40,000 bases of DNA from contig NZ_BBBG01000003.1 in assembly GCF_001315945.1 (NCBI RefSeq), forward strand, positions 76,468 through 116,467. Direction: 5' to 3'. This DNA comes from Methanogenium cariaci JCM 10550. GTDB lineage: Archaea; Halobacteriota; Methanomicrobia; Methanomicrobiales; Methanomicrobiaceae. Under the pieces are notes generated by a model. That model was not told the origin of the DNA and did no database searches. It saw only the letters and a program-made list of their open reading frames with translations. Positions 20,030-38,328 of this stretch are shown here, one piece after another (the first letter of the stretch is position 1; each line of letters opens with the position of its first letter). The position numbers and the translations under genes are program-made.

Positions 20030-20116
20030 GCGAGGGTTGCCGAGTCGGTCAAAGGCGCTGGGTTTAGGGCCCAGTCTTGTAGAAGTTCGCGGGTTCGAAT
20101 CCCTCCCCCCCTCGCA
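20030..20116 (+). tRNA. tRNA-Leu (anticodon UAG), class II with long variable arm; no encoded CCA
   Basis: Hand-folded. Acceptor GCGAGGG/CCCTCGC plus discriminator A. Anticodon stem CTGGG/CCCAG with loop TTTAGGG. Variable arm CTT-GTAG-AAG. T-loop TTCGAAT. The C7 run 20105-20111 is 3 nt longer than the fold allows (C4 expected), and there is one C:T mismatch in the T-stem. Confidence 0.85.
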
Positions 20117-20126
20117 TGACTTTTTT
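20110..20126. repeat. Left copy of the casposon target-site duplication (attL), spanning the last 7 nt of tRNA-Leu plus 10 nt downstream
   Basis: CCTCGCATGACTTTTTT versus CCCCGCATTTGTTTTTT at 35026-35042, 13/17 identical by hand alignment. Each copy abuts a TIR. Confidence 0.7.
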
Positions 20127-20159
20127 GGGTTATAGTTAGTTGTGAAAAACGCCACTATT
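20127..20159. repeat. Left terminal inverted repeat of the casposon
   Basis: GGGTTATAGTTAGTTGTGAAAAACGCCACTATT is the exact reverse complement of 34993-35025. Confidence 0.9.
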
Positions 20160-20217
20160 CTAAATGTAAACATTCAACAAATATTCTAACTGTTTTGGGC
20201 AAGTTGGATAGGAGATA

Positions 20218-20598
20218 TTAGAAATGTTGCAAAATGATTCTAAAATAAAACCCTACATACACAGAAGCTAGACCAAATAAAAATCCTGATACAAATCTCT
20301 TGGTATTATTACTGGTATAGCTGCTTAAACATTGTAAAAATCCATCAATAATTAAAGGCAATAATAAGACTGGAAGTAAAATAATGGGCAAATGGTAGTT
20401 CATTAATAGTAATATTATACCAATTATGCCTCCAACAAGCATACCAAAGCATCTGGCACACAAGTATCTTTCAATTCCAAAAAACTTAATCGATCTTTCT
20501 GGCATATGATGACAAAAACAAAGGACATATGTTCTATTTTTTATAGTCATTAGTAAAGATAAGCCGTAAGAGTCAAGATTACAAATAGAAAGGTCCAC
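20218..20598 (-). CDS. DUF2085-like membrane protein (casposon cargo)
   Basis: 126-aa ORF: CFCHHMPERSIKFFGIERYLCARCFGMLVGG followed by TM helices. Confidence 0.6.
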   Translation of the reverse strand: MDLSICNLDSYGLSLLMTIKNRTYVLCFCHHMPERSIKFFGIERYLCARCFGMLVGGIIGIILLLMNYHLPIILLPVLLLPLIIDGFLQCLSSYTSNNTKRFVSGFLFGLASVYVGFYFRIILQHF

Positions 20599-21046
20599 AC
20601 ATTATCATAAGATATTATGCATTATTGTTTTATGCTACAATTTTTCAATAAATATTCTGCGGATCTCTTTATCGAATTAATTCCTGGAAAATGTCTGGAG
20701 GATTAATGCCACTCCATTTTGGTTTGAATCCATCACCAAGACAATTCGTTTGAGATCACAATGACCATCCGTTAGATAAATGTATTTTATCTAAATTTCT
20801 TCAGTACAAAAATCTACCTAATATTCACCAATTTCACTGAAGTTTGTTATCTACGTGAATACAAAGCAAACCAAAATCTGTTAAAATATGGCAGTTTACA
20901 ACGACTTTGTTGAAGATTTGGATGCTCCAAATTCTGTGATGGCGTCCGACAGAAAGGATTGATTTGTCATCCAATCCGTCAAAATATGATTAATTGGATT
21001 TTTTTCCTGAATATAAAAAGAAATTCAAGTCAATTAATAATTAGGC

Positions 21047-21535
21047 TTATATTTTCTTGGAGGCCATCATATGATTTTCGTCATTTTCCAAAATGAGCAT
21101 ATGTTTCCCAATCCATCCCTCAACATGATATTCATCAGATTTAATTTTACAGGAAACATAACCCTCGTCAAGGATTTTTTCATCAATAATCTCTACTCTT
21201 ACATTCTTATCTGCAGGCAGTTTACCAACAATTTTTAGGTATTTTCTCTCTGGAGTTTTCCAAACGTTAACAGTATCTCCGATCCAATATTCTGCAGATT
21301 CAGGATCATTTATACACAAATTAATGATCGCATATGTTTTGGTTGGTGTAGGCGTAACAATTGTTTTGGTAGGTGATACTTGAGATGATTCAGGCAGTTC
21401 TCCTATTATTGCTCCCCCAAACTGCTCCAAATATAGTGAAAAATAAAAAGAGTCCAACACATCCAACACATATAATGACAAAATTCTCTTTATTTGATCT
21501 TTTAGGTGGTGAGTCTGGTGATGGTTTAGCTGCAT
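21047..21535 (-). CDS. Hypothetical membrane-anchored protein with an SH3-like C-terminal half (cargo)
   Basis: 162-aa ORF in the AT-rich segment. It has a Thr/Pro linker (TKTIVTPTPTKT). The C-terminus WIGDTVNVWKTPERKYLKIVGKLPADKNVRVEIIDEKILDEGYVSCKI...GWIGKHML resembles bacterial SH3 domains. Confidence 0.4.
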   Translation of the reverse strand: MQLNHHQTHHLKDQIKRILSLYVLDVLDSFYFSLYLEQFGGAIIGELPESSQVSPTKTIVTPTPTKTYAIINLCINDPESAEYWIGDTVNVWKTPERKYLKIVGKLPADKNVRVEIIDEKILDEGYVSCKIKSDEYHVEGWIGKHMLILENDENHMMASKKI

Positions 21536-21696
21536 CCATAATTATATGAGAATATTAATCCTATATATGCCTTTATAATCGTTATTTTTACAAAATAATT
21601 TGCAGAGTGTCTCAAATAACAATTATATTTGCAATATGGGTATTTTATCATTGTATTTTGAATTATCTGGAGTAATTATGTTTAAATATTCATACA

Positions 21697-22191
21697 ATGT
21701 CACACTTTTACATGAAAGAAGAATCAATTGAAATTACACGAAACCACATTGATATAATAAATTCAGTGATTGAAAATTCCATCCAATACGAAGATCTAAT
21801 GGATAATAAACGAAGACTTGGTATTACGGGAGAAGTTGGTGAGATCGGAGCTTGTTTCAAATATAACTTAAGATTGGCAAAAAATTCTCAATCTGCTGGC
21901 TATGACGCTATTGATAGTGAAGGAAAAAAGGTTCAAATTAAAACACGAAGAATTGTTTTAGGCCGGAAATCAATAGAATCAAAAAGGCTCTCTTCGTTCT
22001 CTGAACATAAATTTGACTATTGCCTTTTAGTTCTCCTTGATGAGAAATATGATATTTATGAAACGTGGAAAGCCGAGTCATCAGCCATAATGGCTGTTGC
22101 TCGTGATCATAAAAAATGTCAACCATCTATACGTGAATTTAAAAATGAGGGCGAGAAGATTTTCGATAGAAAAACTATGGAAATCTCATGA
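21697..22191 (+). CDS. Small PD-(D/E)xK-type (restriction-endonuclease-fold) protein, DUF6998-like (cargo)
   Basis: 164-aa ORF: GITGEVGEIGACFKYNL...SAGYDAIDSEGKKVQIKTRR, giving an E...D...QxK arrangement. Confidence 0.5.
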   Translation: MSHFYMKEESIEITRNHIDIINSVIENSIQYEDLMDNKRRLGITGEVGEIGACFKYNLRLAKNSQSAGYDAIDSEGKKVQIKTRRIVLGRKSIESKRLSSFSEHKFDYCLLVLLDEKYDIYETWKAESSAIMAVARDHKKCQPSIREFKNEGEKIFDRKTMEIS

Positions 22192-22315
22192 TCTAAAAAG
22201 GGGGGGATAATCGTTGAAGATCAAATTATCATCAGCCTTTTAACAGCAGGAGTCTTCAAATTCAAATCCCCCTTTCTCCCGAATCCTCTGCTTCATCCTC
22301 TGGAACGTCTTTCTA

Positions 22316-24864
22316 TCAACCCCCACACTCTTCAGCTACCTTCTGAGACATGGCAATAATCTTCTTCATGATCTCAGCCTTATCGATAAACTTCTGAGCC
22401 TTCCGAACTTCCAGTGCCTGTTCATCAATGTTGTTCGCTTCCTTCCCTATGTGAGCCACATCATCAGCCACAATATGTCTCCTTTCAAGCAAACCAACAT
22501 CCCCCCCATCAAACTTGTGTTCCGGGTGATTGGCATAATCAAGAATGGTCTGGCAAAGTGCTCTGAAGTAGTGCGAACCCCCCCGCTTGATTTTTCCGGT
22601 CTGATAATCGATGAACTCCCTGTGAACAATTGACTGTGGGTCTTTGGAGAACGGACATAGCGGTTTAACAGGAACACCATTCTCATCCTTCGTTTTAAAG
22701 CCGACAAGATAGAAATTGAACGGCTTAATCTGATCATCCCATGCTTTCCCTTCATTAAAACTATCAAACCTCTTCCATACATGAGAGGTGCTGACCGAAA
22801 GACGGGAGACCGCATAAAATTTTGAATACTTCTCATAGATCTCCATCGCTGAAACAAACCCATAGTGCATACTCAGGATGTCCTGCCAGACTTCAGCCTG
22901 CCAGTCCTTCACATTATTCGGGAAGGGGGGGTTTGCCAGATGTCCCAGACCATGCAGCTTGTATGACCGTTCACCATCCATGAACCGAATGTCCTTGCCG
23001 TCAAGATAGTAGAGAGCATACCGCTTTGAAGAGATGCCATAGAACCACATGTCCTCCTTTTCAGGCTTGAGCAGAGGTATTTCAATGCTATACGGGTTCA
23101 GTGGCTGGAAGAAGTCAAGGATGGGCTGTGCAAGGTCGGGCGGAACAAAAATACTGTCAGTATCCATGTAGGCATGCTGCCCACCCAGCTCCAGCACCTT
23201 TGCCTCAGCCATTGCGAGAAAGAGACGTGACCCTGCAGTAATCATTACCGCCATAAGAGGGTGGAAATATTTCCCTTCTTTCTCATGCCGGTTCTCTACA
23301 GTCGTGAAAGAATCAATACCATTCACCTCAACAGGACTTTTCTTATCTTCTGGATTGAGTTCAATGAAGATACCATAACTCATCGCATTGACAAGAATCT
23401 TGATGGCCTGTGCCTGGCTTGAGAGGTGAAGATATTCAGGATCATCTTTGGAGATGGTCTTGAGGTTTTGTTTAATCTCCTGTCTCTTTTCAACCAGCAC
23501 CTGAAACAGATTGTCCCTGCGAGGGTCAATATCAACCCCCCCATGAATCCGGGTCTTCTGAAGGCTGGCCTGTTGTCCTACCGGGACAAACCGGATGGCT
23601 TCAATAATGTCAGGCACTTTCCCGGTGAGCAGCACCGAGCCGATGACATCCGGCAGGGCATACCACATATCTTTCGCACTGGAGAGGTAATTGAGTCCGA
23701 CCACATAGGGAGAGTCATCTCCTTTATAGTCCATCCTCGCCGGGAGAATATCATCATCCGGTCGCAGCTTGACAAGAACACAGAAGTCCTTCCAGATATC
23801 AGGGTTCTGTAAGTCTGCAAGGGTGAGAGAAGAAAGGAACGCTTGTATTTCGTCAGTCGCATCCATTGATTCAACACGATCTGCAATGAGATAGGGCCAG
23901 AGACCCAGAATCATGGTAATGGTTGGATACATACTGGTAAAGTCAAGCACCGACACCTTGGTCGGCTGTTTACGTATCCTGCATTCCGTCCTTCCCCCCC
24001 CGTAATACGCTGACATGATATTACCGAGAATAGCATCCGGAAAGTCAGGGTTCTGCTGATGAAATGGTGTGACAACCATCTGTTTGAGGGCATACTTCCC
24101 GATGGATGCTGAGCTGAACACCTTCGTGAGAGGGATACCAATCTGGAAGAGATCCAGTTCCTGTACAAGCCTGCGATAGACTTCATAGGTCGCTTCGACA
24201 TCCCGGATGTTGTATTCAATATATTTCTCCGTCACCCGTCCATGAGAGACATTGGTATATTTCTCATGGCTGATGTTGAGCATCTCACCTGCACGCTGAA
24301 GGGAGACACGTTTTGCCTGAAGCATTACCTCAGCCAGTTTCTGCACGTCCAGAAAATACCCGCCAAAAAATCTTTTTTCATATTTTTCTTAGTCGAGCTG
24401 AACTTCATGCTGTAAGCGCTTCCCAGCTGTTTTACAATAATGGGTGGTTGCATACGGTCTTCAGAAAGGGTGAGGGTGAACCCTCCTTTGTTTCGTCCGC
24501 GTGAGTGAGCTGCCTTGTGAGCAATCCGACTGAGGTCAAACGGGAGGTTGAACCCAATACAGAGGTTTTTAGATCAAAGACTTCTCGGTAGAATACTTCA
24601 TCGATGAACTCTTTCTGGGAGTAAAGCTCAATGGAATTCTGCTCTGCATACCGTTTCAGGGTCTTTCGTTCACGGTTGTCAAGGTGTGCAGCATTATAGA
24701 TCAGGCCGTGATGCTGTAAGATGTCGTCCTGATAGATCTGGAAATACCCGATCTTCAGATTCTGATACAGGTCAATGGTGGTCTCTGTATCAAAGACCAA
24801 GACACGGGAATGCCTGGGCGGGTGGTCGGGATAAAAGGCTGTTTTCCCCCCTTCCCCTTCTCAT
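22316..24864 (-). CDS. polB: Family-B DNA polymerase of the casposon (about 849 aa; N-terminal quarter broken at A/T and G runs)
   Basis: Exo I: VLVFDTETTID. Exo II after correcting the A5 run: LCIGFNLPFDLSRI. Motif A: VLDFTSMYPTI. SAYYGGGRTE (a G8 run where family-B polymerases have YGG). Motif C: HAYMDTDSIF. The ATG at 24864 sits in an ATGA overlap with the HNH stop. Confidence 0.88.
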
Positions 24865-25235
24865 TGAGTTTTCGAGTGTATCCACGGACTGCTAACACTG
24901 GCATTCTGCTGCACCTCATGGGCAAATTCGATAAGTGACTGACCAACATATTTCAGAAGTGCACCAAGGCTCAGGAGCCAGAATGCAACCTGTTCTGCCT
25001 GAAGACCATTGGCAGCGCGGGCTTTCGGAGGAAAACGGTTCTGCTCCATTGTTACCTTTGCGTGACAGTTCTTGCAGAGAGGAACGGTCTTCTCAGATGT
25101 CGCTCTACCATCGACATGGTGCATCTCAAGGAGGGCTGGATTATCTTCTCCACACATTACACAGCATTGCACGGTCTGGCCTGACCGGATCATCTTCTTT
25201 GTTGTATTTTGGTAGGTTTTTTTGTCCATATGCAT
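24861..25235 (-). CDS. HNH endonuclease
   Basis: 124-aa ORF: CCVMCGEDNPALLEMHHVDGRATSEKTVPLCKNCHAKV. Confidence 0.8.
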   Translation of the reverse strand: MHMDKKTYQNTTKKMIRSGQTVQCCVMCGEDNPALLEMHHVDGRATSEKTVPLCKNCHAKVTMEQNRFPPKARAANGLQAEQVAFWLLSLGALLKYVGQSLIEFAHEVQQNASVSSPWIHSKTQ

Positions 25236-25240
25236 CGCTC

Positions 25241-25882
25241 CTATGACTGATAGATCTCGAAAAATTCCGGTTCTTCTTCTGCATCCTTGATCTCATACAG
25301 GCGTTCCAGATCGGTTTCAAACCGGTAGCGGATACCGTTGGCATCAATAACTACCATCTGCTCAAATCGCTTCAGGAGTGCTGGGTTGTTATCCTCAATT
25401 GCAAACCGGACATAGGCATGGTATCGTGCAATCCGTGTTCGGTCTACTGAGTTTGCAACGGGAATCGAAATATGACCCTTCTCACGGTCATAGATCATCA
25501 TCTCAACTTCTATGCGGTCTGTTTTGTTGATGTGCCAGTAACCACGTTCCTTCCGGAGATTCAGGCCAAGATGTTTGACAGCAGTGTCACGTGAAAGACC
25601 CAGCTCTCTGAACTTTGGGGAGAAGTGTTCACCATTCCGCATGGCACGGAGCAGTTCAAGGGAGAGGAGCCGTTCACGCTTCTCTTCAGGAGAGAGATCA
25701 TTCCACGGGTTATTACTCAGGTCATAGTCTCGGACGCGGAGACCCTTCAGCTCTTTCAGGCTCTTGCCGGGAAATCGTTCATGGAACCGGATGATACGCT
25801 TTGCATACCGTGATTCCCGTGGGTGTGCGTTGAGCCACTCGCCATAGGTGCGATACTCCTGAGAGAACCGTTTGCGGCTCAT
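25241..25882 (-). CDS. Hypothetical 213-aa casposon core protein
   Basis: Intact ORF at the core GC level, between the RHH and HNH genes, start in an ATGA overlap with the RHH stop. No motif recognised. Confidence 0.5.
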   Translation of the reverse strand: MSRKRFSQEYRTYGEWLNAHPRESRYAKRIIRFHERFPGKSLKELKGLRVRDYDLSNNPWNDLSPEEKRERLLSLELLRAMRNGEHFSPKFRELGLSRDTAVKHLGLNLRKERGYWHINKTDRIEVEMMIYDREKGHISIPVANSVDRTRIARYHAYVRFAIEDNNPALLKRFEQMVVIDANGIRYRFETDLERLYEIKDAEEEPEFFEIYQS

Positions 25883-26028
25883 CTGTCTGCCTCCAGCATC
25901 CGGATGAACGCCATCCTGAGGACTTCAGCCTGGGAACATCCATAGCGGTCTGCGGTCTCAACGATCTTCGCCTTCAGATACGGCGAAACAGAAATGACCA
26001 GTTTGTTGGTCTTTTCTTTTGGTGTCAT
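25879..26028 (-). CDS. 49-aa ribbon-helix-helix (CopG/Arc-like) protein (not in the ORF track)
   Basis: My translation: MTPKEKTNKLVISVSPYLKAKIVETADRYGCSQAEVLRMAFIRMLEADR*. It shows a beta-strand then two helices, the typical RHH pattern. Confidence 0.6.
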   Translation of the reverse strand: MTPKEKTNKLVISVSPYLKAKIVETADRYGCSQAEVLRMAFIRMLEADR

Positions 26029-26050
26029 AGAGTCATGAAGGAGAGCAGAC

Positions 26051-26150
26051 ACTATCGTTAGTAATGATAGCTAATATGATAGCATATATTATATCATATA
26101 AAGATAATAGTGAATGTTGATAGTCAAATGTCAGATGCTAAAAGTGATAG
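26051..26150. promoter_or_regulatory. Divergent promoter/operator region with iterated TGATAG motifs and an AT palindrome
   Basis: ACTATC at 26051-56 (inverted). TGATAG at 26065-70, 26077-82, 26118-23 and 26145-50. ATAATAG at 26104-10. TATA-like ATATATTATATCATATA at about 26084-26100. Confidence 0.45.
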
Positions 26151-27029
26151 TGCAATAATCCAGTATCTCTCCACTCATCCCCCCCAACAAGAACCTCCAA
26201 ACTTGTGAGAGAGATCGTGGAAAATCACAAAGGTGAAAGGGGATTTAGTGAACCAAGCCTGTACAGGTCAATTGAATATTTGGACAAAGCAGGCATGATT
26301 GCAAAAATTCAAAATCCAGACCTTATCGCCTATGGAATCAAAGAATCCAATAATAGAGCCGTCTATCTCACGCTGAAGCCCTTTGCAGAACGAAAAGAAC
26401 ATCTTGACACATTATTTGGCCTGCTTTCCAAAGGTGACACAGCAGATATCAGGATGGTTCTCGATGAAATCCGACTTTACCGTGACAAATACATTCTCAC
26501 ACCAAAACAGTTAGACTCGATTGTCAACCTGCTGACCAAAGACGCTGATATTGCCAAAGCAGCTACCGAAATTCTCTATGATTATTTCATAATACGGGAA
26601 ATTCCACCTTTTGAGAAAGACCGGTTTAGGGTTCTGCTGCGTGCAAGCCTTACACAGTTTGACATTCGTGTGCCGCAAAATTCACAGATGCGTAATCAAC
26701 ATATCCGCATGCTCGGAAAGTTGAGGGATGAAGGGGGGGTGGTATCCCAACTCATTGAGGATGCCCGAAACGCAGATGACTTTGAATCTCTGAAGAACGA
26801 TTATCTGACAAATTTCACTGCCTTTATCATTGAATCACACCGCACGGAACTCTTCAATCTGGAACGCGAACTGCGAAAGGGAGACCGGGTGAAAGAGGCC
26901 GATACTCTTGCAGAGATACGTAAGTATGCAACGGAACATGAGAGTGACCCGCTTGATGCAACCGACCCGATGGAAGGCATCATAGGTGCGCCTGAACTGA
27001 AAGGACTGCTCAAGGGGATGAGGTCATGA
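26128..27029 (+). CDS. Winged-HTH DNA-binding protein upstream of cas1 (N-terminus restored across the C7 run 26179-26185)
   Basis: From ATG 26128: MSDAKSDSAIIQYLSTHP. With a C5 run it joins in frame to TRTSKLVREIVENHKGERGFSEPSLYRSIEYLDKAGMIAKI (wHTH). The stop overlaps the cas1 start. Confidence 0.65.
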
Positions 27030-28252
27030 AGTTCCTGCTTCTCAACGGGCATGGGATCAGCATGAAAGTTGACCGTGCACACCTCCATATCACGGACGGA
27101 CGGTTCTCTACCGAAGAGGAGCCTGCGAAGTATGTCTTCCATCCACAACGTATTGACATCGATTCCATTGTGATCTACGGGAGGAGTGGCAACCTCAGTC
27201 TTGAAGCCATTCGCTGGCTTGTCAAACACAATGTGCAGGTGTCTGTTCTCGATTGGGATGGAACCATGCTCACCACCATGCTCCCTCCGGAGAGCGTGCA
27301 GGTGAAAACGAAGTTTGCACAATACCGGGCATTTGACGATAAGAAGTTGAGACTGAAACTCGCAAAGAAGTTTATTGAATCCAAGTTTGACCGCTCCCAG
27401 ATCGTCCTTGACTATCTGCACCAGCGCTATCCGGATGTTGACCCTGAGATTCCCTATGAACCAAAGAATCTGAAAGACGCAAAGTTGATCCGTGAAGTGA
27501 TGGGAGTTGAGGGAGCTGTTGCCCAGCACTACTGGAAGCAGTTTGCCAAAGTCATCCCTGAAGAGTATGAGTTTGAGAGCCGGACGGGACGTTACCACAC
27601 ACGGCCATCAGGTGCAGGGGGGGATCAGGTCAATTGTATGCTGAATTATGGGTATGCCCTTCTCGAAGCCGAGTGTTTGCGGGTCATCAACAGTGTTGGT
27701 CTTGATGCACATGTAGGATTCCTTCATGAGATGCAATCCGGCAAGAACAGTCTGGCCTATGACATGCAGGAGTTGTTCCGGTTTCTTGTTGACCTAGCAG
27801 TTGTCAACCTCGTTGAGCGCGAAGCGATGACCGCGAAGGATTTTGTCAGGACTGAGAGCTATGCACTGAGGTTACGGCCCACAGGTGCACGCAAGATGAC
27901 GGAAGAGGTGAACGCATGGTTCAACAAGACGGTTGAGTATCAGGGCAAAGAGCTGATGTGGAGTTATGTGATGGTGCTGAAGGGCAGGGAGCTGGCGCAC
28001 TATCTGACTGGGAAGAAACAGTCGTTGTGTTTCATGAAACCGGAGTATCAGGTTGACAGGGTTGATACGGATGACGTCCGTAGGAAGATACTCAGTATAT
28101 CATATGCTGACTGGAAGAAACTGGGTTTCTCAAAAGGTTCATTGCACTATATGAAAAAGAACGCAGAGTCTGAGAAGCCGTTTTCCCTCAATCAACACGT
28201 TGTTGAACGGTTGATGCAATGGGATCAACTGAAAGAGACGCTTACGGTCTGA
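27026..28252 (+). CDS. cas1: Cas1 homologue (casposase) with a C-terminal HTH
   Basis: Intact 408-aa ORF: MGVEGAVAQHYW (catalytic Glu), NCMLNYGYALLEAE, GLDAHVGFLHEMQSGKNSLAYDMQELFR (His and acidic residues). C-terminus: ISYADWKKLGFSKGSLHYMKKN. Confidence 0.9.
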   Translation: MKFLLLNGHGISMKVDRAHLHITDGRFSTEEEPAKYVFHPQRIDIDSIVIYGRSGNLSLEAIRWLVKHNVQVSVLDWDGTMLTTMLPPESVQVKTKFAQYRAFDDKKLRLKLAKKFIESKFDRSQIVLDYLHQRYPDVDPEIPYEPKNLKDAKLIREVMGVEGAVAQHYWKQFAKVIPEEYEFESRTGRYHTRPSGAGGDQVNCMLNYGYALLEAECLRVINSVGLDAHVGFLHEMQSGKNSLAYDMQELFRFLVDLAVVNLVEREAMTAKDFVRTESYALRLRPTGARKMTEEVNAWFNKTVEYQGKELMWSYVMVLKGRELAHYLTGKKQSLCFMKPEYQVDRVDTDDVRRKILSISYADWKKLGFSKGSLHYMKKNAESEKPFSLNQHVVERLMQWDQLKETLTV

Positions 28253-28276
28253 TATTTATTTCAACTTTCTTTTCTG

Positions 28277-28350
28277 TTGAGGCAATTCAACGTCCATTGA
28301 TAGTTGATGTTGAAGTATTGTTGATAATTATTGAGAATTAGCGATGTTGA
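28277..28350. repeat. Cluster of eight TTGA(T/A) motifs downstream of cas1
   Basis: TTGA at 28277, 28297, 28304, 28310, 28321, 28331 and 28347. The cluster includes TTGATAG at 28297-28303, identical to the operator-like motif at 26117-26123. Confidence 0.35.
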
Positions 28351-28619
28351 TTCCACGAGGATGAGGAAAGATGTCAATTGAGTTTAATCTGTTTTCAAAT
28401 CACTTTATTTCAAGTTTAAGAAATTAGTATGGGAGAAACGAGTATCATTCAAAGGTTGTTATGCTCGCCGGGTTCAGTGTAAGGTAAGAATCAGTGAGGT
28501 ATTAGCTAAACGGCCCTCCCAATATCTTATTAAACCACTATATTTGAAATTTTTTAAAATTCATGGATTATATTATTTAATAAAACTTAAACACAATCAC
28601 ATCGTTACGTCGTATATAT

Positions 28620-31600
28620 ATGTCCATAGAATGGGATCGATTAAGATCCTTTGACGGATCTGTCCAACATGCTTTTGAAGAGCTATGTGCTCAATTAGTT
28701 TCAAATGAAAAGTTTCCTTCAGATTCAACGTTTGTTCGTAATGGATTGCCCGATGGAGGTGTTGAATTTTATTGGACATTACCGGATGGAAAAGAATACG
28801 GTTGGCAGGTCAAGTATTTTACTAATTTAAATGATAGTCATCGTTTTTCTCAAATAGACCGTTCTGTCAAAGATTCCATTAGAAATCATCCAAATTTGAT
28901 TAGTTATACAGTCTGCCTAGCAATGGACTTGCCTGATGCAAAAGTTAAAAACAAGAAATCGGCTAAAGAAAAATGGGATGGATATGTAATAAAATGGAAT
29001 AAAATAGCACAGGAAAATGGAAAGTCCATTGAATTTCGATATTGGGGTGATCATCAAATCTGGAAACGATTGAGTGCTGAAGAAAACCGAGGTAGACATT
29101 ATTTTTGGTTCAATAAAGATTTTTTTAGCAATGAATGGTATAAAAAAAGCATTGAAGTATCTCGTGCTAACGTTGGCCCTCGATATTCAAGTGAATATAA
29201 TGTGGATTTACCAATTATAAAATACTTTAATGGGTTAGGACGGACGAATGATTTTTTTAAAGAATTCACGCCTTTATTCAATAATATCCAACGCGCATAT
29301 AATTATTTGGATCTCAAAAAAATTGAGGAAATAATTGGGACATCTGAGCCGGTTATTGATCAAGACATTGAAGAATTAGAAAGAATTCATGGCAAGATTT
29401 TAAAACACCAACTTGGTTTTATTGATTTTAATTCAATTAATGTATTATGTTCGACAATCCAGGTCATATTAACAGATTGGAATAATAATATAAAACAAAA
29501 AATTAGAGATGAAAAACGGGATTGGATTGAACAAAATCGAGATAAGGATAAACTCTATTCTCACCTTCAAAATTATGAAGATCCTTATAGCAAACTGTTA
29601 CAATTAAATCAGGAATTATCAAATCTAAAAGAATTTGCATTAGGTAACGCTGGTAGATCCGCGAATATCCCATTATTGTTAATTACTGGTAATGCAGGAA
29701 ATGGTAAGACCCATCTCCTTTGCGATGTTGCGGTGAGAAGGATCGGAACAGATTTACCAACAATCCTCTTATTAGGAAGTCATTTTAGAGATGATGAACC
29801 TTGGAATCAGATTATAAAGCATCTTGGTTTAAATTGTAATCGTGATGAATTTTTAGGAGCACTAAATACAACAGCCGAGATTGCCAAATCAAAATGTCTA
29901 ATCTTCATTGATGCACTGAATGAAGGTGATGGGAAAAAACTATGGAGAAAGTATTTAGCGGGGATGATCGAAACTCTCAAAAATTACCCCCCCGTTTGGG
30001 AATTGTTTTAAGTGTACGAAGTTCTTACAAAAATATCATAATCCCTGAAGGATTTGATTCAAATAATTATGTTGAAATAATTCATGAGGGATTTTCAGGT
30101 CATGAATTTGAAGCAAGTAAAATTTTTTTTGATCACTATAATATTGAGAGACCCACAATACCAATCCTAAATCCCGAATTTAAAAATCCATTATTTTTAA
30201 AAACTTTCTGTGAAGCCATTCAAAATCACGGTGAGACAAAAATACCAGAAGGAATCCAAGGGATTTCTAAAGTTTTTAACTACTATATTGACTCTATCGA
30301 TGAAAAATTATCAAGAGAAGAATATTTGGATTTTGATCCAAAATCGAAAATTGTCCAGAAAGCAATGGAAGAGATTGCATCACATATGGCAGAAAACGGA
30401 AATCCTTGGCTATTATACGAAGATGCTAAAAATATTGTTGACAATATTCTTGGGAATAAAAAACATTCTCAATCCCTTTTCCGACATTTGGTTTCCGAAG
30501 GAATACTATCTGAGGATGTGATTTGGGATAAAGATGATAATTATAATGAGGTTATTCGTTTTTCCTACGAACGTTTCTCTGATTATTTAATAACCGAAAG
30601 TTTGTTTAAATTACATTTTGAATCTGGTGAAATTTGTGATCTATTCAAAAATGGAAAACCTCTGTTTCAACTCATCAAAGATGAACCAACCTGTTGGCAG
30701 AATCAGGGACTAATTGAAGCGCTATCTATTCAAATTCCGGAACGTTACGGACAAGAGTTATCAGATGTCGCACCACATTGTGCTAACTTTCAATCGGTAC
30801 GAGAAGCATTCATAAATAGTATTATTTGGAGACATCCCACTGCGTTCTCTAAGTCTACATTGACATACATCAATAACTATATTCTTAAAACAAGAAAACC
30901 CCATGACCAAAATTTGGTTTTCAATTTGTTAGATGCATTCTTACAAATCTCCTCTAATCCAAATCATCCGTATAATGCAGATCAACTTCATAAATGGCTT
31001 TTTAATTTAAAACTTGGAGTCAGAGACAGTTTATGGACAGTCTATCTCTCTCGTCGATACAACGATGAAACATCAATTGATTCTTTAATTGAATGGGCTT
31101 GGTTCAGTGATGTTAAAGAAACTATAGATGATGAATCAAGAAGGTTATACGGAATTACTCTTGCTTGGTTCTTGACATCATCTCATAGATATCTACGAGA
31201 TCGAACAACCAAGGCTCTCATTTCACTTTTCTCAAACCACTTAGATCTCTTTCATAAGATCCTTGAAGATTTTATCGAAGTAGATGACCCATATGTATTG
31301 GAACGCCTTTTTGCAGTTGCATATGGTTGCGCAATGAGAGGTAATGATACGGAAAACATTGCAATACTGGCAAAAGATGTATTTACTTGGATCTTCGAAG
31401 ATGGGTGTCCGCCACCCAATATACTTCTACGCGATTATGCACGAGGTTTAATCGAATGCTCTCTCCAAAAAAACGGAGATATGAATATTAATGTTGAAAA
31501 AATTCAACCCCCCCCATATACAAGTGCGTGTGAAGACTTTATTCCTGATATAAATGAATTGAAAAAAGATGAAATTAGAATAAAAAAATTATGTGAAAAT

Positions 31601-33218
31601 AGCAAAGCTGCGACTGAAATTTATGATTCAGTAATGGGTTTTGAGGATTTTGCACGATATGTTATAGGAACAAATTCAGATTCGTTTGATTGGTCTTCAA
31701 GACGATTAAAGAATTCACGACCTACTGTCATGGAGAGATACCTGAATTTTGTAGGATCATTAAATAAAGATAAGAAAAATGCTTGGGATAAATTTGAATA
31801 TCACTTTAACGCAACAAAAAATCCGATTATATCAGAAAATAATGGTGACTTTTCAATAATAATTGAGAAGAAATTCTCTGCTAGAACAATTAAGAAATAT
31901 GAGAATTTGCTATTAAGTTCTTTAAACTCAAAAGAAAAGAAAATCTTTGATAAATATGTCATTCCCTATCTTGAAAACCCACATAAATACAGAAAGGACG
32001 ACAAAAAATTCAATATTACTATAGCACAGCAATGGATTTTAAAACGAGTATTTGATTTAGGTTGGACCGAAGAGCGTTTCGGAGATTTCGATAATTGGAT
32101 GATCATTTTGAACAATCGGAATTATATCCGAGCCGCAAATAAACCTGAAAGAATTGGGAAGAAATACCAATGGATTGCATATTATGAATTTCTTGCAATC
32201 GTTTCTGATAATTTCAAACTTAAAAATGATTATTGGGGGGGAGGACAATCTTCTTTAAAATATGACGGCCCTTGGCAGTTAAATGTGAGAAATATTGATC
32301 CTTCTATTTTATCAATAAAAACCGAACCTCCAGGATGGGAATCAGATGGGTCAGAAAATAACTGGTGGTTCACAGAACAATATAACCAAAAAGAGCCGAA
32401 TGAAACAGATGAACAATGGATATCAGGTTCCAATGACCTTCCTAATGTAAAAGCATTAATCCAAGTTACTAATCCCAAAGACTGTTCTGAATGGTTGAAT
32501 TTAAATGGCATATACAATTGGTCTCAACACACGGATTCTGATGAAATTATGCATAAAACAAAGCGAGAATTGTTCTATATAATTCATGTATATATTGTGA
32601 AGAAGCAGGATAGTCAAAAAGCATTCAGATGGGCACAAAAGGTAAATTTTAAAGGACGATGGATGCCCGATCCCTTCGACTTCCATACAATTTATCTTGG
32701 GGAATTTGTGTGGTCTCCAGCGTACATCGGTACAACTGCAAATGGATATTCTGAATGGAAATTAGGACTACATTATGCAAATAATAATATTCCATGTCCA
32801 ATTCACAATCCTTGTGTAAAATATAATTGGAGTTCTGGGGGGTTATGACTGTTCTATAGAAGAAGGAATTTCAATCTCTATCCCATCCGCATGTTGATAG
32901 AAAAAATGGGTCTATCATGGAATGGAGAGGAAGGCAAATGGTTTAATAATAAGGGAGAACTTGTTGCATTCGATCCCTCAGTAAATGAGAGAGGGCCCCA
33001 ATGTTTACTGATTAATAAAAAATATTTCACTTCCTTCTTAAATGAAAATGGTTATGATATTTTTTGGGCACTGCTCGGTGAAAAAAATATAATTTCAGGA
33101 ATGCCCCCCTTCAAGCTGTTTGTATATAACTGGCGCTTACCAGTTAAAAGATAATGAAGTGATCGGTAAGAAAAAATCAACATATACTGTTTTTGATGAT
33201 GGTATAGAAAAAACCTAA
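28620..33218 (+). CDS. Giant (~1,530 aa) Mrr-like PD-(D/E)xK nuclease plus STAND-like P-loop NTPase plus large uncharacterised C-terminal region; at least 4 frame breaks
   Basis: N-terminus: FEELCAQLVS...GLPDGGVEFYW...GWQVKYF (Mrr-type D...QxK). Walker A: LLITGNAGNGKTHLL (about 29686-29715). Walker B: CLIFIDALNEGD (about 29895-29930). ORFs 28620..30011, 29942..32848 and 32891..33154 join at the C7 run 29987-93, the G6 run 32837-42, about 32889 and the C run 33103-10. The tail SSCLYITGAYQLKDNEVIGKKKSTYTVFDDGIEKT* ends at 33218. Confidence 0.7.
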
Positions 33219-33250
33219 TCTAAATATATCAACATTATTTTAATGAATAT

Positions 33251-33664
33251 TTATTTTTCTCGAATTACATATATATTTGATACCTTTATTATTGGATCTT
33301 GCACACTCCAAGTATCATAAAAATGGATTTCACTTTCAAATATTTCATTCGGTTTAAAATCGTTTATTTCAAATTCTTTGCATTGAAGTTCTTTTGTTCC
33401 TTTAGAATTCAGCATTGTAACCTTGAAATGAACATCCTCAATAACATGACCATTATTTATTGCAACAATTTGAATCGGATAATCAAAACGCTGTATACCT
33501 GCACGTCCAAGGTCAGATAAAGAATTCATATTATGCTCTAAAAGTGTAGTTTCAATTGAAATATTCTCTGTTGGAGTCAATTCGTATGTGACACATCCAG
33601 GAATAAATATTACAAGAAATGATGAAAGAAGAACTAAGATCTTAAAGAATTTCATATATGACAA
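33251..33664 (-). CDS. Putative lipoprotein/secreted protein (cargo)
   Basis: 137-aa ORF: MKFFKILVLLSSFLVIFIPGC (signal peptide with a lipobox-like Cys). Confidence 0.45.
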   Translation of the reverse strand: MSYMKFFKILVLLSSFLVIFIPGCVTYELTPTENISIETTLLEHNMNSLSDLGRAGIQRFDYPIQIVAINNGHVIEDVHFKVTMLNSKGTKELQCKEFEINDFKPNEIFESEIHFYDTWSVQDPIIKVSNIYVIREK

Positions 33665-33815
33665 TAGATTTATGCATATTATAAGATACCCTACAATAGC
33701 TAATATGTTTTGAAGATATTATGGGATCATTTTCCGGCAAATGTTTAGGAAAGGAGTTTTAGTTTATAATAATTGAGAACTCCTTTAAATTTAATTTAAT
33801 CGTAAATCTTAACGG

Positions 33816-34013
33816 TTAGAAATATCTACTGACAATCCCGATAACACCAAGTCCTCCAAAGATAAGCCCAATACCAACTCCACCCCAAATTGCGAGTTGT
33901 CCTGCTGTGGCGTTAACGTCGGTGGCACTTAATATAATTCCAGCAATGATCAGGACAGGTACTATTCCTACTCCTTTCATACCGAGGCCAAATATTTTTT
34001 GAGTCATGTTCAC
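33816..34013 (-). CDS. Small Gly-rich two-TM membrane protein (cargo)
   Basis: 65-aa ORF: GVGIVPVLIIAGIILSA...LAIWGGVGIGLIFGGLGVIGIV. Confidence 0.4.
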   Translation of the reverse strand: MNMTQKIFGLGMKGVGIVPVLIIAGIILSATDVNATAGQLAIWGGVGIGLIFGGLGVIGIVSRYF

Positions 34014-34109
34014 CTCCCGTTCAATTTTTTTACGTGTTTTTTTGTAGAACCTGAAATATCAATAAAAGTTTCATTATAGCATCATTAACATCTTTAGCAT
34101 TGTGAGTAT

Positions 34110-34906
34110 ATGGCTGGAATTGAAAAGACAATTCATATCATCCCACTGGGTCACGAAATTGATCGTGCGGTAATCCCATTTGATGATACGACAGTTGATC
34201 ATGTTTACATCCTTACCGGGCTCAAAGAAACAAATTCCCGAATGGATTTGAGTAAAAAACAACAATATTATGCTAAAAAAGTAAGAGACAAATTACAGGA
34301 AAAAGGCATATTTGTAACATGTATTCATATAAATCTCTTCGATTTACGTGAAGTAATGAAAACAATTTCAAAAATAATCGTAGAAGAAAAAGCAAAAAAT
34401 AACCGTATTTTTGTAAATATGTCCGCTGCAGGGAGACTAACATCAGTGGCAGCAACACTTGTTGGAATGGCTCATGATGTTCAAGTGTATTATGTCCATG
34501 CTGATGAATATCCTGATGATGAAGAAATCAGAAAAATTCATGGTTTGAGCATCTGTTCTTCTCAGGAAATTACGCAATTATCAAATTTTAAAATTGTAAT
34601 GCCTGATCCTGAAGATTTAGAAATACTTCTTTTCCTTACTAAAAGAGATACGGCCAGAATGAGCGATATTTTGGAAATGATGCATGAAAAAAATATTGAA
34701 GGTTTCGAGGAGGATTTTAAGAAAATTGAACAATCTCAGAAAAAAAGAAGAGTTCAGAGCAGGCAATTAATGAAGCTGGATAAAACGATTATCGCTCGGT
34801 TAAAAAAAATGGATTTGTTTCTCGAACCAAAAAGGGCAAATATACTTATGTTTCAATAACCGAATCAGGAAATTATGCAGCACATATCAGTGGTATGATG
34901 GAATAA
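34110..34906 (+). CDS. Csa3/CARF-like Rossmann N-domain plus C-terminal wHTH regulator (HFX_2341/DUF6293-like); frame break at the A8 run 34803-34810
   Basis: N-terminus: KTIHIIPLGHEIDRAVIPF...VYILTG...IFVNMSAAGRLTSVAATLVG. After the A run, my translation gives GFVSRTKKGKYTYVSITESGNYAAHISGMME* (wHTH wing). Confidence 0.5.
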
Positions 34907-34992
34907 TTACTATTATTGATATACACAATTCTATTTTCAGAAGAATGCATCGCTATGCGTTTTTTCTAACAGAACAGTGAAAGTGATTTTAA

Positions 34993-35025
34993 AATAGTGG
35001 CGTTTTTCACAACTAACTATAACCC
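34993..35025. repeat. Right terminal inverted repeat of the casposon
   Basis: AATAGTGGCGTTTTTCACAACTAACTATAACCC is the exact reverse complement of 20127-20159. Confidence 0.9.
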
Positions 35026-35042
35026 CCCCGCATTTGTTTTTT
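35026..35042. repeat. Right copy of the target-site duplication (attR-like, retains a tRNA 3'-end-like CCCCGCA)
   Basis: CCCCGCATTTGTTTTTT versus 20110-20126. The exact C count is unreliable. Confidence 0.65.
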
Positions 35043-35071: not shown

Positions 35072-35110
35072 TTTTAATAGTTCTTGATTCATTGAAATGC
35101 ATTTTTCATA

Positions 35111-38321: not shown

Positions 38322-38328
38322 GAATGGT

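What the first reader, a model, noticed from the sequence alone, without database searches (positions are those of the whole stretch)
20110..35042. Apparently complete casposon inserted at the 3' end of tRNA-Leu(UAG)
The left end 20127-20159 and the right end 34993-35025 are perfect 33-bp inverted repeats. Each is flanked by a 17-nt direct repeat (13/17 identical), and the left copy contains the last 7 nt of the tRNA. Inside is the casposon signature: a solo Cas1 with intact catalytic motifs and a C-terminal HTH, family-B polymerase, HNH, RHH and wHTH genes. There is no cas2 and no CRISPR array. Core genes are translationally coupled through ATGA overlaps at 24861-24864 and 25879-25882. Identical TIRs and an intact casposase suggest a recently mobile element. 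Targeting of tRNA 3' ends is what I recall for family-2 casposons of Methanosarcina, but that is from memory and not checked here.
Basis: partly seen in the sequence, partly recalled or inferred. Interest (0 to 1): 0.75.

Follow-up and report, generated by a model that had tools for sequence, protein, structure and literature searches.

The report
Defence-carrying casposon at a tRNA-Leu gene
This is a complete family-2 casposon, a self-replicating transposon that inserts with a Cas1-type enzyme, sitting at the 3' end of a leucine tRNA gene of the methanogen Methanogenium cariaci. It is a new example of a known kind, notable mainly because it and its close relatives carry different antiviral defence genes.

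Summary
Window 20127-20159 and 34993-35025 are perfect 33-nt inverted repeats (38 nt at 97%). They enclose a solo Cas1 that matches the M. mazei casposase over its full length (PDB 6OPM, E=1e-180), plus PolB, HNH, RHH and two conserved accessory genes. tRNA-Leu(UAG) lies directly to the left.

Three corrections are needed:
- The window is an error-laden assembly of Methanogenium cariaci in which every G/C run of 4 or more is written as 7. A newer assembly of the same sequence differs only by indels.
- The target-site duplication is therefore 14 nt (CGCA+N10, 11/14 identical), not 17. It overlaps 4, not 7, tRNA bases. The frameshifts in PolB are artefacts.
- The ATGA at 24861-24864 is not the PolB start, which is at 24904.

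These features match published M. mazei family-2 casposons: tRNA-Leu target, 14-bp duplication with invariant CGCA, and tandem arrays. This is a new member of a known kind.

Additional points:
- The element carries Avs2, a methyl-directed restriction-like gene and a CARF-wHTH regulator.
- Four close relatives with the same core carry different defence cargo.
- The right-hand neighbour is a decayed casposon holding a Wadjet system.
- Related genomes show empty, differently occupied and near-identically occupied sites, which supports mobility.

The parts
20030..20116 (+). tRNA-Leu(UAG), the integration target. It stays intact. The window copy has 3 artefactual extra Cs in the T-stem/acceptor.
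   Evidence: ARAGORN and Rfam. An 84-nt tRNA is found in the accurate assembly. Coordinates mapped.
20113..20126 (+). [quoted passage not shown] CGCA is the last 4 nt of the tRNA.
   Evidence: Junction comparison. The same N10 (TGACTTTTTT) follows the tRNA in Methanogenium sp. MK-MG.
20127..20164 (+). Left terminal inverted repeat, GGGTTATAGTTAGTTGTGAAAAACGCCACTATT...
   Evidence: It is identical to the left TIR of the Methanogenium sp. S4BF casposon.
20218..20550 (-). Left cargo: DUF2085 membrane protein.
   Evidence: Pfam 1.4e-25; gene call in the accurate assembly.
21047..21539 (-). Left cargo: 163-aa protein of unknown function.
   Evidence: Gene call. No Pfam or PADLOC hit.
21697..22191 (+). 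Left cargo: DUF6998 protein resembling a type II methyl-directed restriction enzyme.
   Evidence: Pfam DUF6998 3.3e-9; PADLOC mREase_II 1.9e-14.
22221..24904 (-). Family B DNA polymerase. It is 888 aa in the accurate assembly. In the window it is broken by five homopolymer indel artefacts.
   Evidence: Pfam DNA_pol_B_2 and DNA_pol_B; frame analysis; intact gene call; indel list.
24861..25235 (-). HNH endonuclease, 124 aa.
   Evidence: Weak Pfam HNH and RecA_dep_nuc hits. 91% identical to the S4BF homologue. Present in every relative.
25241..25882 (-). Conserved 213-aa core protein. By position it is one of the two accessory 'HTH' proteins of family 2.
   Evidence: 97.7% identical to S4BF. A 213-216-aa homologue sits at the same position in all relatives. 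No Pfam hit.
25879..26028 (-). Small RHH-type regulator, 49 aa. Its stop overlaps the start of the 213-aa gene (ATGA at 25879-25882).
   Evidence: The homologue in L137 hits Pfam RepB-RCR_reg.
26053..26127 (.). Divergent promoter/operator region between the RHH and HTH-Cas1 operons. It holds most of five TGATAG motifs; the last ones run into the start of the HTH gene.
   Evidence: TRF 12-nt repeat at 26064-26100. The 26020-26310 stretch is 96% conserved with S4BF. The function is inferred.
26128..27029 (+). 298-aa accessory protein upstream of cas1, the second family-2 accessory gene. Its stop overlaps the cas1 start (ATGA at 27026-27029).
   Evidence: Gene call. 94% identical to S4BF. Coordinates mapped. 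The window copy has a +2 artefact at 26180.
27026..28252 (+). Casposase: Cas1 with a C-terminal HTH. The catalytic residues E162, H234 and E249 align with E162, H232 and E247 of the M. mazei casposase.
   Evidence: Pfam 2.7e-67. PDB 6OPM E=9.6e-181 over residues 1-402. Active-site residues taken from PMC6977970.
28620..33218 (+). Right cargo: Avs2 antiviral STAND NTPase. It is 1529 aa in the accurate assembly and split into 3 ORFs in the window by artefacts.
   Evidence: PADLOC Avs2 E=0, 1661 bits, full length. Gene call. Indels.
33251..34007 (-). Two small cargo ORFs of 134 aa and 63 aa, both unknown. The 63-aa gene belongs to the conserved right-end module.
   Evidence: The 63-aa gene is 85% identical to its S4BF homologue.
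34110..34906 (+). CARF-wHTH (HFX_2341/Csa3-like) regulator, 265 aa. With the 63-aa gene and the TIR it forms a right-end module.
   Evidence: Pfam HFX_2341_N 2e-35 and DUF6293_C. PADLOC CARF3 3.6e-103. Weak NCBIfam Csa3 hit. The module is 90% identical, inverted, to the left end of the second S4BF element.
34988..35025 (-). Right terminal inverted repeat.
35029..35042 (+). Right copy of the 14-bp duplication, CGCATTTGTTTTTT. Positions 35026-35028 are artefactual Cs.
35043..40000 (+). Neighbouring element B, a decayed casposon used as a defence island. Contents: a second TIR (GGGTAATAGTTATCTTGTAATTTTGCAAC), two unknown genes (35111-35500 and 35602-36339, minus strand), a PolB C-terminal remnant (36505-36684, minus strand), and Wadjet JetA (36885-38321), JetB (38329-38909) and JetC (38851 onward). 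It continues beyond the window.
   Evidence: The same TIR type follows tRNA-Leu in L023, L083 and L089. JetD and PDC-S06 lie beyond the window.

Best explanation
The feature is a structurally complete family-2 casposon of Methanogenium cariaci. It measures 14,863 bp in the accurate assembly and 14,899 nt in the window. It is inserted immediately after tRNA-Leu(UAG).

Mechanism, inferred from the 66%-identical M. mazei casposase and not shown here:
- A casposase tetramer binds the CCC-3' ends of the terminal inverted repeats.
- It joins the two ends 14 bp apart on opposite strands. Gap repair then gives the 14-bp duplication and leaves the tRNA intact.
- The element's own PolB copies it. HNH, the RHH protein and the two accessory proteins assist or regulate.

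Structure, shown directly:
- A 6.0-kb core (PolB to Cas1, 47% GC) is flanked by low-GC cargo (32-33% GC).
- The cargo includes Avs2, a methyl-directed restriction-like gene and a CARF-wHTH regulator.
- The element is the tRNA-proximal member of a tandem array. Its right neighbour is a decayed casposon carrying Wadjet.
For: - TIRs: 33/33 perfect, 0 expected by chance.
- Duplication: 14 bp, CGCA+N10, with mismatches only at central positions 6-8. This matches the published pattern of invariant CGCA, variable centre and AT-rich 3' end (PMC4779613).
- Casposase: PDB 6OPM E=1e-180 over the full length including the C-terminal HTH, with the catalytic E/H/E conserved. CRISPR Cas1 structures reach at best 1e-42, and no subtype model passes its cut-off.
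- Nearest homologues at ~65% identity come from Methanolobus, Methanococcoides and Methanoregula, the published family-2 hosts.
- All genes are intact in GCA_054654835.1. The window frameshifts also hit the host genes EhaB, EhaD and AI-2E, and they follow a systematic homopolymer rule.
- Insertion and mobility:
  - Methanogenium sp. S4BF has the identical TIR and a 92.5%-identical core, while its host flank is only 78.7% identical and its cargo differs.
  - The closer relative MK-MG (flank 84.8%) has a different casposon at the same tRNA.
  - A Methanoculleus MAG with the same AI-2E/tRNA-Leu synteny has an empty site.
- 22-23 methanogen loci have tRNA-Leu (UAG, UAA or CAA), then 10 nt, then a GGGTWATAG TIR. 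No haloarchaeal or bacterial locus does.
- Complete relatives L133/L135 have a 13/14 duplication and enclose their cargo within the TIRs.
- The same TIR is found in 5 metagenome contigs in other contexts.
Against: - The two duplication copies differ at 3 of 14 positions. Under simple cut-and-paste this suggests age or a non-canonical history.
- The right-end module (63-aa gene, CARF-wHTH, TIR) is shared, inverted, with a different element in S4BF. The present element may therefore be a recombinant rather than one lineage.
- The strong GC contrast between core and cargo shows mosaic origin.
- No transposition, excision or circular form was observed here.
- The far (right) end of the tandem array was not found, so both flanks of this genome could not be compared with one empty site.
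Confidence: 0.93

Rival explanations
1. The TIR-bounded 15 kb is a chimera, not one transposon. Under this view, a casposon that lost its own right end was fused by recombination or deletion to the right-end module of another tandem casposon. It may no longer move as a unit.
For: - The right-end module at 33789-35025 is 90% identical, inverted, to the left end of the second S4BF element.
- Cargo GC is 32-33% against 47% for the core.
- The duplication copies are only 11/14 identical.
- Tandem arrays give ample substrate for TIR-TIR recombination.
Against: - The two TIRs are identical over 33 nt, whereas the S4BF version of the CARF-adjacent TIR differs at 4 positions.
- Relatives L133/L135 and L136 have the same layout (core, then cargo, then TIR) as single insertions, with 13/14 and CGCATTCT-matching duplications.
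- Non-identical duplications are documented for MetMaz-C1, which can carry a duplication copy from its donor site (PMC10359463).
- A recombinant origin would not prevent mobility, because the casposase needs only the two TIR ends.
Confidence: 0.15
2. The element is a dead, pseudogenised relic. PolB and several cargo genes are frameshifted, so it cannot replicate or move.
For: In the window, PolB is read through three frames with 5 shifts. Avs2, CARF-wHTH and JetB are also split.
Against: - The newer assembly of the same sequence has 0 substitutions and intact genes: PolB 888 aa and Avs2 1529 aa.
- Essential host genes EhaB and EhaD are equally frameshifted in the window.
- All indels follow one rule, G/C runs of 4 or more written as 7, plus single-base losses in runs.
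Confidence: 0.03
3. The cas1 is a remnant of, or an adaptation gene for, a CRISPR-Cas system rather than a transposase.
For: NCBI annotates it as 'CRISPR-associated endonuclease Cas1'. It passes the generic cas1 model.
Against: - There is no array, cas2 or other cas gene in the window plus 8 kb beyond.
- All CRISPR subtype Cas1 models score below their cut-offs.
- It matches the casposase structure over its full length, including the casposon-specific C-terminal HTH.
- It is embedded between TIRs with PolB and HNH.
Confidence: 0.01
4. The island is a tyrosine- or serine-recombinase integrative element or provirus that uses tRNA-Leu as its att site. Under this view the casposon genes are passengers.
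For: tRNA 3' ends are classic att sites. M. mazei has such an element next to a casposon at tRNA-Leu (PMC4779613).
Against: - No integrase, capsid or terminase family was found among the ORFs scanned from 20.1 to 40 kb.
- The flanking repeat shares only 4 nt with the tRNA, not a 15-50-nt att core.
- The boundaries are inverted repeats ending in CCC-3', as in casposons.
Confidence: 0.01

Closest known systems
Methanosarcina mazei family-2 casposons at tRNA-Leu (e.g. MetMaz1FA1A3-C2, MetMaz3HT1A1-C1) and MetMaz-C1. Described in Krupovic et al. 2016 (PMC4779613), Hickman et al. 2020 (PMC6977970) and the 2023 NAR in vivo study (PMC10359463).
   Same: - Casposase about 66% identical over its full length, with the C-terminal HTH and the catalytic E/H/E.
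- PolB-HNH-accessory-Cas1 core.
- TIR ending ...CCC-3'.
- 14-bp duplication made of the last 4 bp of tRNA-Leu (CGCA) plus 10 AT-rich bp.
- Tandem arrays with one decayed copy.
   Different: - The host is a Methanomicrobiales species (Methanogenium), not Methanosarcina.
- The TIR sequence is different.
- The element is larger (14.9 kb against about 10 kb) because of 8.9 kb of low-GC cargo: Avs2, a methyl-directed restriction-like gene and CARF-wHTH.
- The decayed neighbour here carries a complete Wadjet system.
Unpublished sister element in Methanogenium sp. S4BF (CP091277, locus L001).
   Same: - Identical left TIR.
- Core 92.5% identical at the DNA level.
- Same tRNA-Leu(UAG) next to the Eha/AI-2E locus.
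- 14-nt CGCA duplication.
- A second TIR exactly 14 nt after the right TIR.
   Different: - The cargo is replaced: DUF1889 on the left; type I restriction-modification plus a TIR-domain protein on the right.
- The CARF-wHTH end module belongs to the second element and is inverted.
AciBoo-C1 of Aciduliprofundum boonei (family 2; casposase integrase shown in vitro).
   Same: Casposase-driven, site-specific insertion at a tRNA 3' end with a 14-15-bp duplication. The target is recognised through sequence upstream of the duplicated segment.
   Different: The target is tRNA-Pro, not tRNA-Leu. The host is a thermophile. The TIRs and cargo differ. This comparison rests on the literature only (abstracts listed); no sequence comparison was made here.
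Tn7-like transposons and pipolins as site-specific carriers of defence cargo (PMC8649781, PMC11551731).
   Same: Site-specific insertion next to a conserved gene, repeated use of the same site, and variable defence-gene cargo attached to a conserved mobility core.
   Different: The transposition machinery is unrelated (casposase rather than TnsABC or a tyrosine recombinase). The pipolin study reported a lower defence-gene density in 48 reference casposons than in pipolins.

Membership tests
Family-2 casposon | Cas1 homologue (casposase) with conserved catalytic residues, not linked to a CRISPR array or cas2. | tested here: met
   Pfam Cas_Cas1 2.7e-67. E162, H234 and E249 align with E162, H232 and E247 of 6OPM. 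No array or cas2 was found.
Family-2 casposon | C-terminal HTH fused to Cas1, unique to family 2 (PMC4046053). | tested here: met
   The alignment to the M. mazei casposase runs through residues 1-402 of 408, covering the C-terminal extension that CRISPR Cas1 proteins lack. The Pfam Cas1 domain ends at residue 296.
Family-2 casposon | Cas1 clusters with family-2 casposases in a phylogeny that includes families 1, 3 and 4. | tested here: inconclusive
   No tree with reference families was built. Similarity strongly favours family 2: about 66% identity to the M. mazei casposase and 60-69% to the Cas1 of Methanolobus, Methanococcoides and Methanoregula, the published family-2 hosts.
Family-2 casposon | Family B DNA polymerase of the archaeal RNA-primed (PolB3-like) type. 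| tested here: inconclusive
   An intact 888-aa PolB is present with Pfam DNA_pol_B_2 and DNA_pol_B hits. Its phylogenetic type was not determined.
Family-2 casposon | Five-gene core: Cas1, PolB, HNH and two HTH proteins. | tested here: met
   PolB, HNH, the 213-aa gene, RHH, the 298-aa gene and Cas1 appear in the same order in S4BF, L133-L136 and L137-L139. The HTH nature of the 213-aa and 298-aa proteins was not confirmed by Pfam or NCBIfam.
Family-2 casposon | Terminal inverted repeats. | tested here: met
   33 nt perfect, 38 nt at 97%. The terminus ...TATAACCC-3' resembles ...TATATCCC-3' of M. mazei.
Family-2 casposon | Target-site duplication. For the tRNA-Leu lineage: 14 bp, invariant CGCA, AT-rich 3' part, overlapping 4-7 3' nucleotides of a tRNA gene. 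| tested here: met
   CGCATGACTTTTTT and CGCATTTGTTTTTT in the accurate assembly. Criteria taken from PMC4779613 and PMC4046053.
Family-2 casposon | Size 6-16 kb; euryarchaeal host. | tested here: met
   14,863 bp. Host is Methanogenium cariaci.
Family-2 casposon | Casposase-catalysed integration and excision activity. | not testable with these tools
   Shown only for the M. mazei and A. boonei enzymes (PMC6977970, PMC10359463).
CRISPR-Cas adaptation module | cas1 adjacent to cas2 and a repeat array; Cas1 passes a subtype model. | tested here: not met
   No array. No cas2 among the called genes. All subtype-specific NCBIfam models score below their cut-offs.
tRNA-targeting integrase-type integrative element | Tyrosine or serine recombinase gene, and direct att repeats containing 15 nt or more of the tRNA 3' end. 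| tested here: not met
   No recombinase family was hit. The flanking repeat shares only 4 nt with the tRNA.

The most novel reading that the evidence does not exclude
This casposon lineage acts as a vehicle for antiviral defence genes. A nearly fixed 6-kb mobility and replication core carries an exchangeable cargo slot between cas1 and the right TIR.

Cargo seen in that slot in close relatives with 85-95% identical Cas1:
- Avs2 in M. cariaci
- type I restriction-modification plus a TIR-domain protein in S4BF
- an Avs4-like STAND NTPase in L133/L135
- a PD-Lambda-4-like protein in L136
- a more distant relative, L139, has an Mrr-NACHT-WD40 protein in the same position

Repeated insertion at tRNA-Leu would then build a defence island. 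Here that island includes Wadjet and PDC-S06 in the decayed neighbour.

A further speculation concerns the casposon-borne Csa3-like CARF-wHTH protein at the right end. It may regulate casposase expression in cis, as the chromosomal CARF protein MM_0565 does for cas1-solo in M. mazei.
Probability: 0.5. Interest if true: 0.55.

Novelty: new member of a known kind. Interest (0 to 1): 0.4.

Why it matters
Casposons are the presumed ancestors of the CRISPR adaptation machinery, and few intact, recently mobile copies are known outside Methanosarcina.

This element adds a structurally complete family-2 casposon in a cultured Methanomicrobiales species. A near-identical sister element, a differently occupied site and an empty site exist in relatives. 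Together these form a natural set for testing target recognition of tRNA-Leu isoacceptors and excision.

Closely related cores carry different defence systems, and a decayed neighbour holds Wadjet. This suggests that casposons help assemble defence islands in methanogens. No paper in the searchable library links casposons to these defence systems.

On a practical level, the case shows that the older M. cariaci assembly has a systematic homopolymer error. That error creates false pseudogenes and distorts short repeats.

Tried and rejected
- Exact look-up of the window's Cas1 found nothing. The window protein has one artefactual extra residue. Look-ups with JetA and the 213-aa protein succeeded.
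- I tried to walk right of the array. A protein search with the DUF3800 protein of L002 returned only a cluster representative from a 1.4-kb contig. The far end of the array and the right host flank therefore remain unknown.
- Search for a right TIR of element B:
  - Mismatch search, inverted-repeat search and a position-weight matrix built from 25 TIRs found none up to L002 21437.
  - There is only a weak '...AAATAACCC' candidate at the GC jump near L002 20083. I do not claim it.
- The M. marinum locus L010 shares a 155-nt stretch with the right end of L002, but it is a tRNA-Leu(CAA) locus without synteny. It was not used as an empty site.
- I looked for an internal TIR at the inner border of the shared right-end module (33789). 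Homology simply ends after the 63-aa gene.
- A PDB sequence search with the CARF-wHTH protein gave no significant hit.
- NCBIfam gave nothing for the 213-aa, 298-aa, RHH, HNH or PolB proteins.
- Rfam found no RNA other than the tRNA in the window.
- I considered PolB decay as real and rejected it.

Full report
**1. What is in the sequence**

ARAGORN finds a single tRNA in the window, tRNA-Leu(UAG) at 20029-20115. Rfam agrees and finds nothing else.

The longest inverted repeat in 19-40 kb is 20127-20164 against 34988-35025. It is 38 nt at 97% complementarity, with the outer 33 nt perfect. All other inverted repeats are 70-88% complementary. The 33-mer occurs exactly twice, with none expected in 100 shuffles.

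A direct repeat, 20107-20138 against 35023-35054, spans the junctions. It continues into a second TIR-like sequence, GGGTAATAGTTA..., that starts at 35043.

Between the TIRs lie the following:
- a Cas1 gene (Pfam 2.7e-67)
- a family B polymerase
- an HNH gene
- a small RHH-like gene
- two conserved unknown genes
- about 9 kb of other genes

**2. The window is an error-laden assembly**

PolB is read through three frames in the window. Compared with the orthologous proteins of Methanogenium sp. S4BF, the window has 5 frameshifts in PolB. It also has frameshifts in the host genes EhaB, EhaD and AI-2E.

Exact-protein look-ups brought in contig BAAIGF010000004.1 of GCA_054654835.1. It matches the window over 20.7 kb with 0 substitutions and 50 indels.

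The indels follow a rule. Every G/C run of 4, 5 or 6 is written as 7 in the window (27 cases of +3, 5 of +2, 9 of +1). There are also nine small deletions (eight of 1 base, one of 2), mostly within base runs.

Both assemblies are Methanogenium cariaci. The 408-aa Cas1 of the window is WP_062397180 and the 407-aa version is GAB7015888.

In the accurate assembly the following genes are all intact: PolB (888 aa), Cas1 (407 aa), a 1529-aa gene, the CARF-wHTH gene (265 aa) and JetB, JetC and JetD.

Consequences:
- The apparent decay is an artefact.
- The poly-C runs at both junctions are 3 bases too long in the window.

**3. True junctions**

The accurate assembly reads as follows:

...GGTTCGAATCCCTCCCCTCGCA|TGACTTTTTT|GGGTTATAGTTAG...
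...CTAACTATAACCC|CGCATTTGTTTTTT|GGGTAATAGTTATC...

The duplication is therefore 14 nt: CGCATGACTTTTTT and CGCATTTGTTTTTT. The two copies are 11/14 identical and the mismatches fall at central positions 6-8. Only CGCA belongs to the tRNA.

The element is 14,863 bp long. The composition differs by segment:

| Segment | Length | GC |
|---|---|---|
| Core, PolB to Cas1 | 6,007 bp | 47.4% |
| Left cargo | 2,091 bp | 31.9% |
| Right cargo | 6,765 bp | 33.0% |
| Host flank | 4,906 bp | 52.2% |

**4. Identity of the Cas1 and of the element**

The Cas1 aligns over residues 1-402 with the M. mazei casposase (PDB 6OPM) at E=9.6e-181. This includes the C-terminal HTH extension. The best CRISPR Cas1 structure reaches 8e-42.

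The active-site residues E162, H232 and E247 of the casposase (PMC6977970) align with E162, H234 and E249 here. No CRISPR subtype model of NCBIfam reaches its cut-off.

The nearest database homologues are:
- Methanogenium sp. S4BF, at 95% identity
- metagenomic proteins, at 84-86%
- Methanolobus, Methanococcoides and Methanoregula proteins, at 60-69%; these are the published family-2 hosts

There is no array. No other cas gene appears among the called genes from about 5 kb left to 8 kb right of the element.

The family-2 definition in PMC4046053 lists these features, and all are met:
- a C-terminal HTH on Cas1
- a core of Cas1, PolB, HNH and two accessory proteins
- a size of 6-16 kb
- overlap with 4-7 3' nucleotides of a tRNA gene

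The specific tRNA-Leu pattern in M. mazei also matches. That pattern is a 14-bp duplication with invariant CGCA, a variable centre and an AT-rich 3' end, with tandem arrays in which one copy has decayed (PMC4779613; PMC6977970).

**5. Evidence that it is an insertion and has moved**

- Methanogenium sp. S4BF carries the identical left TIR next to the same tRNA-Leu(UAG) and Eha/AI-2E locus. Its TSD copies are CGCATTTTTGGTTC and CGCATTTTTGGGTA. A second TIR begins exactly 14 nt after the right TIR. The casposon core is 92.5% identical over 6.1 kb, while the host flank is only 78.7% identical and the cargo differs.
- A scan of species-representative genomes for the tRNA 3' end returned 120 loci. 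In 22-23 methanogen loci the tRNA-Leu (anticodon UAG, UAA or CAA) is followed after 10-11 nt (16 in L098) by a GGGTWATAG-type TIR. This is seen in no haloarchaeal or bacterial locus.
- Methanogenium sp. MK-MG has a flank 84.8% identical and the same N10, TGACTTTTTT. It holds a different casposon there, with a different TIR and a PolB C-terminus only 41% identical.
- A Methanoculleus MAG (L111) has the same AI-2E-tRNA-Leu(UAG) synteny, with AI-2E 75% identical. Its site is empty...CGCATGCAGAAATTTTTT is followed by a convergent host gene.
- The same TIR occurs in five metagenome contigs in other arrangements. One of these follows a ~57-bp mini-element made only of two TIR ends.
- Complete relatives L133/L135 are 13.0 kb with a 13/14 duplication, and L136 is 12.6 kb. 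Both enclose their cargo inside the TIRs.

The imperfect duplication has a published explanation. MetMaz-C1 was seen in vivo to bring its own duplication copy to a new tRNA-Leu-like site (PMC10359463). Recombination within the tandem array is an alternative explanation.

**6. Cargo and neighbour**

PADLOC assigns the following:
- The 1529-aa gene is Avs2 (E=0, full length).
- The DUF6998 gene resembles a type II methyl-directed restriction enzyme (2e-14).
- The right-end gene is a CARF-wHTH protein (CARF3, 4e-103). Pfam gives HFX_2341_N and NCBIfam gives a weak Csa3 hit.

The 1.2-kb right-end module (63-aa gene, CARF-wHTH, TIR) is 90% identical, in inverted orientation, to the left end of the second S4BF element.

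Cargo between cas1 and the right TIR in relatives with the same core:

| Locus | Cargo |
|---|---|
| S4BF | type I R-M plus a TIR-domain protein |
| L133/L135 | Avs4-like 1800-aa STAND NTPase |
| L136 | PD-Lambda-4_A-like protein |
| L139 | Mrr-NACHT-WD40 protein |
| L137, L138 | compact; no large cargo gene called next to cas1 |

Element B lies to the right of 35043. It begins with a TIR type that directly follows tRNA-Leu in other genomes (L023, L083, L089). It keeps a 40-residue PolB C-terminal remnant at 36505-36684. It then carries Wadjet JetABCD, a PDC-S06 ATPase and small genes, up to a GC jump about 12 kb further on. No right TIR was detected.

**7. Mechanism**

Shown here:
- the anatomy
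- conservation of the catalytic residues
- the target pattern
- presence/absence polymorphism among relatives

Inferred from the M. mazei enzyme (PMC6977970, PMC10359463):
- A casposase tetramer binds the TIR 3' ends.
- It recognises about 30 bp of the tRNA-Leu 3' part plus the 14-bp site.
- It integrates both ends with a 14-bp stagger.
- Excision leaves a single site, possibly through a circular form.
- PolB copies the element.

The RHH gene and the HTH-Cas1 operon diverge from a 96%-conserved region that contains five TGATAG motifs. This is probably an operator, but that is an inference.

**8.

- The duplication is 14 nt, not 17.
- The tRNA overlap is 4 nt, not 7.
- PolB starts at 24904, 44 nt inside HNH, as called in both accurate genomes. 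The ATGA at 24861-24864 is therefore not a gene junction.
- The ATGA overlaps at 25879-25882 and 27026-27029 are real.

**9. Verdict**

This is a genuine, structurally complete family-2 casposon and a new member of a known kind. No paper in the searchable library mentions casposons together with Methanogenium or with Avs, Wadjet or STAND systems.

Its main added interest is the exchangeable defence cargo on a conserved core, and the defence island built by tandem insertion at tRNA-Leu.

Noticed in passing
whole window; examples at 20107, 22202, 24847, 27619, 29988 and 35025: Systematic assembly artefact. Every G/C homopolymer of 4-6 is written as 7, and some runs lose a base. Compared with GCA_054654835.1 there are 0 substitutions and 50 indels in 20.7 kb. 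This creates false frameshifts in host genes (EhaB, EhaD, AI-2E) as well as in element genes.
   Followed up: yes
window 35043-40000, continuing to about L002 20090: The right neighbour is a decayed casposon. It has a different TIR type and a PolB C-terminal remnant at 36505-36684. It carries a complete type I Wadjet system (JetABCD), a PDC-S06 AAA_13 ATPase and MJ0788/DUF2283 genes. No right TIR was found.
   Followed up: partly
window 26053-26204: The divergent intergenic region between the RHH operon and the HTH-cas1 operon contains five TGATAG motifs (TRF 12-nt repeat at 26064-26100). It is 96% identical to the S4BF element. This is probably an operator for the casposon's own regulators.
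   Followed up: partly
window 33789-35025 and L001 18603-19838: The right-end module (63-aa gene, Csa3-like CARF-wHTH gene, TIR) is shared at 90% identity with a different, inverted element in Methanogenium sp. S4BF. A chromosomal CARF-wHTH protein is known to activate cas1-solo in M. mazei (PMC7465815). A casposon-borne one could do so in cis.
   Followed up: partly
L133/L135, L136, L139 and L001 (relatives of the element): Casposons with the same core carry a different large defence gene between cas1 and the right TIR: an Avs4-like STAND, a PD-Lambda-4_A-like protein, an Mrr-NACHT-WD40 protein, or type I R-M plus a TIR-domain protein. L137 and L138 are compact and have no large cargo gene next to cas1.
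   Followed up: partly
L129 6740-6843 and L130 20-123 (metagenome contigs): A ~57-bp mini-element made only of two casposon TIR ends sits between a tRNA 3' end and a full casposon TIR. It is a solo-TIR or MITE-like relic within a tandem array.
   Followed up: no
L002 20428-21186 (beyond the window's right end): A DUF3800 gene is followed by a DUF3800-X RNA (Rfam RF02984, 84 bits), just after the GC jump that seems to end the low-GC island.
   Followed up: no
L010 3560-3580 (Methanogenium marinum): tRNA-Leu(CAA) is followed after 18 nt by GGGTAATACC. This may be a degraded TIR relic at another tRNA-Leu isoacceptor.
   Followed up: no
window 19939-19960: A perfect 9-nt tandem repeat, TTTTTCCGA x 2.4, lies about 70 nt upstream of the tRNA-Leu gene, in its presumed promoter region.
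   Followed up: no
window 16713-19906: The host left flank is the Eha energy-converting hydrogenase operon (EhaB-G) plus an AI-2E family transporter. This synteny is conserved next to tRNA-Leu(UAG) in S4BF, MK-MG, L083, L089, L111 and L137, which makes the site easy to compare across Methanomicrobiales.
   Followed up: yes
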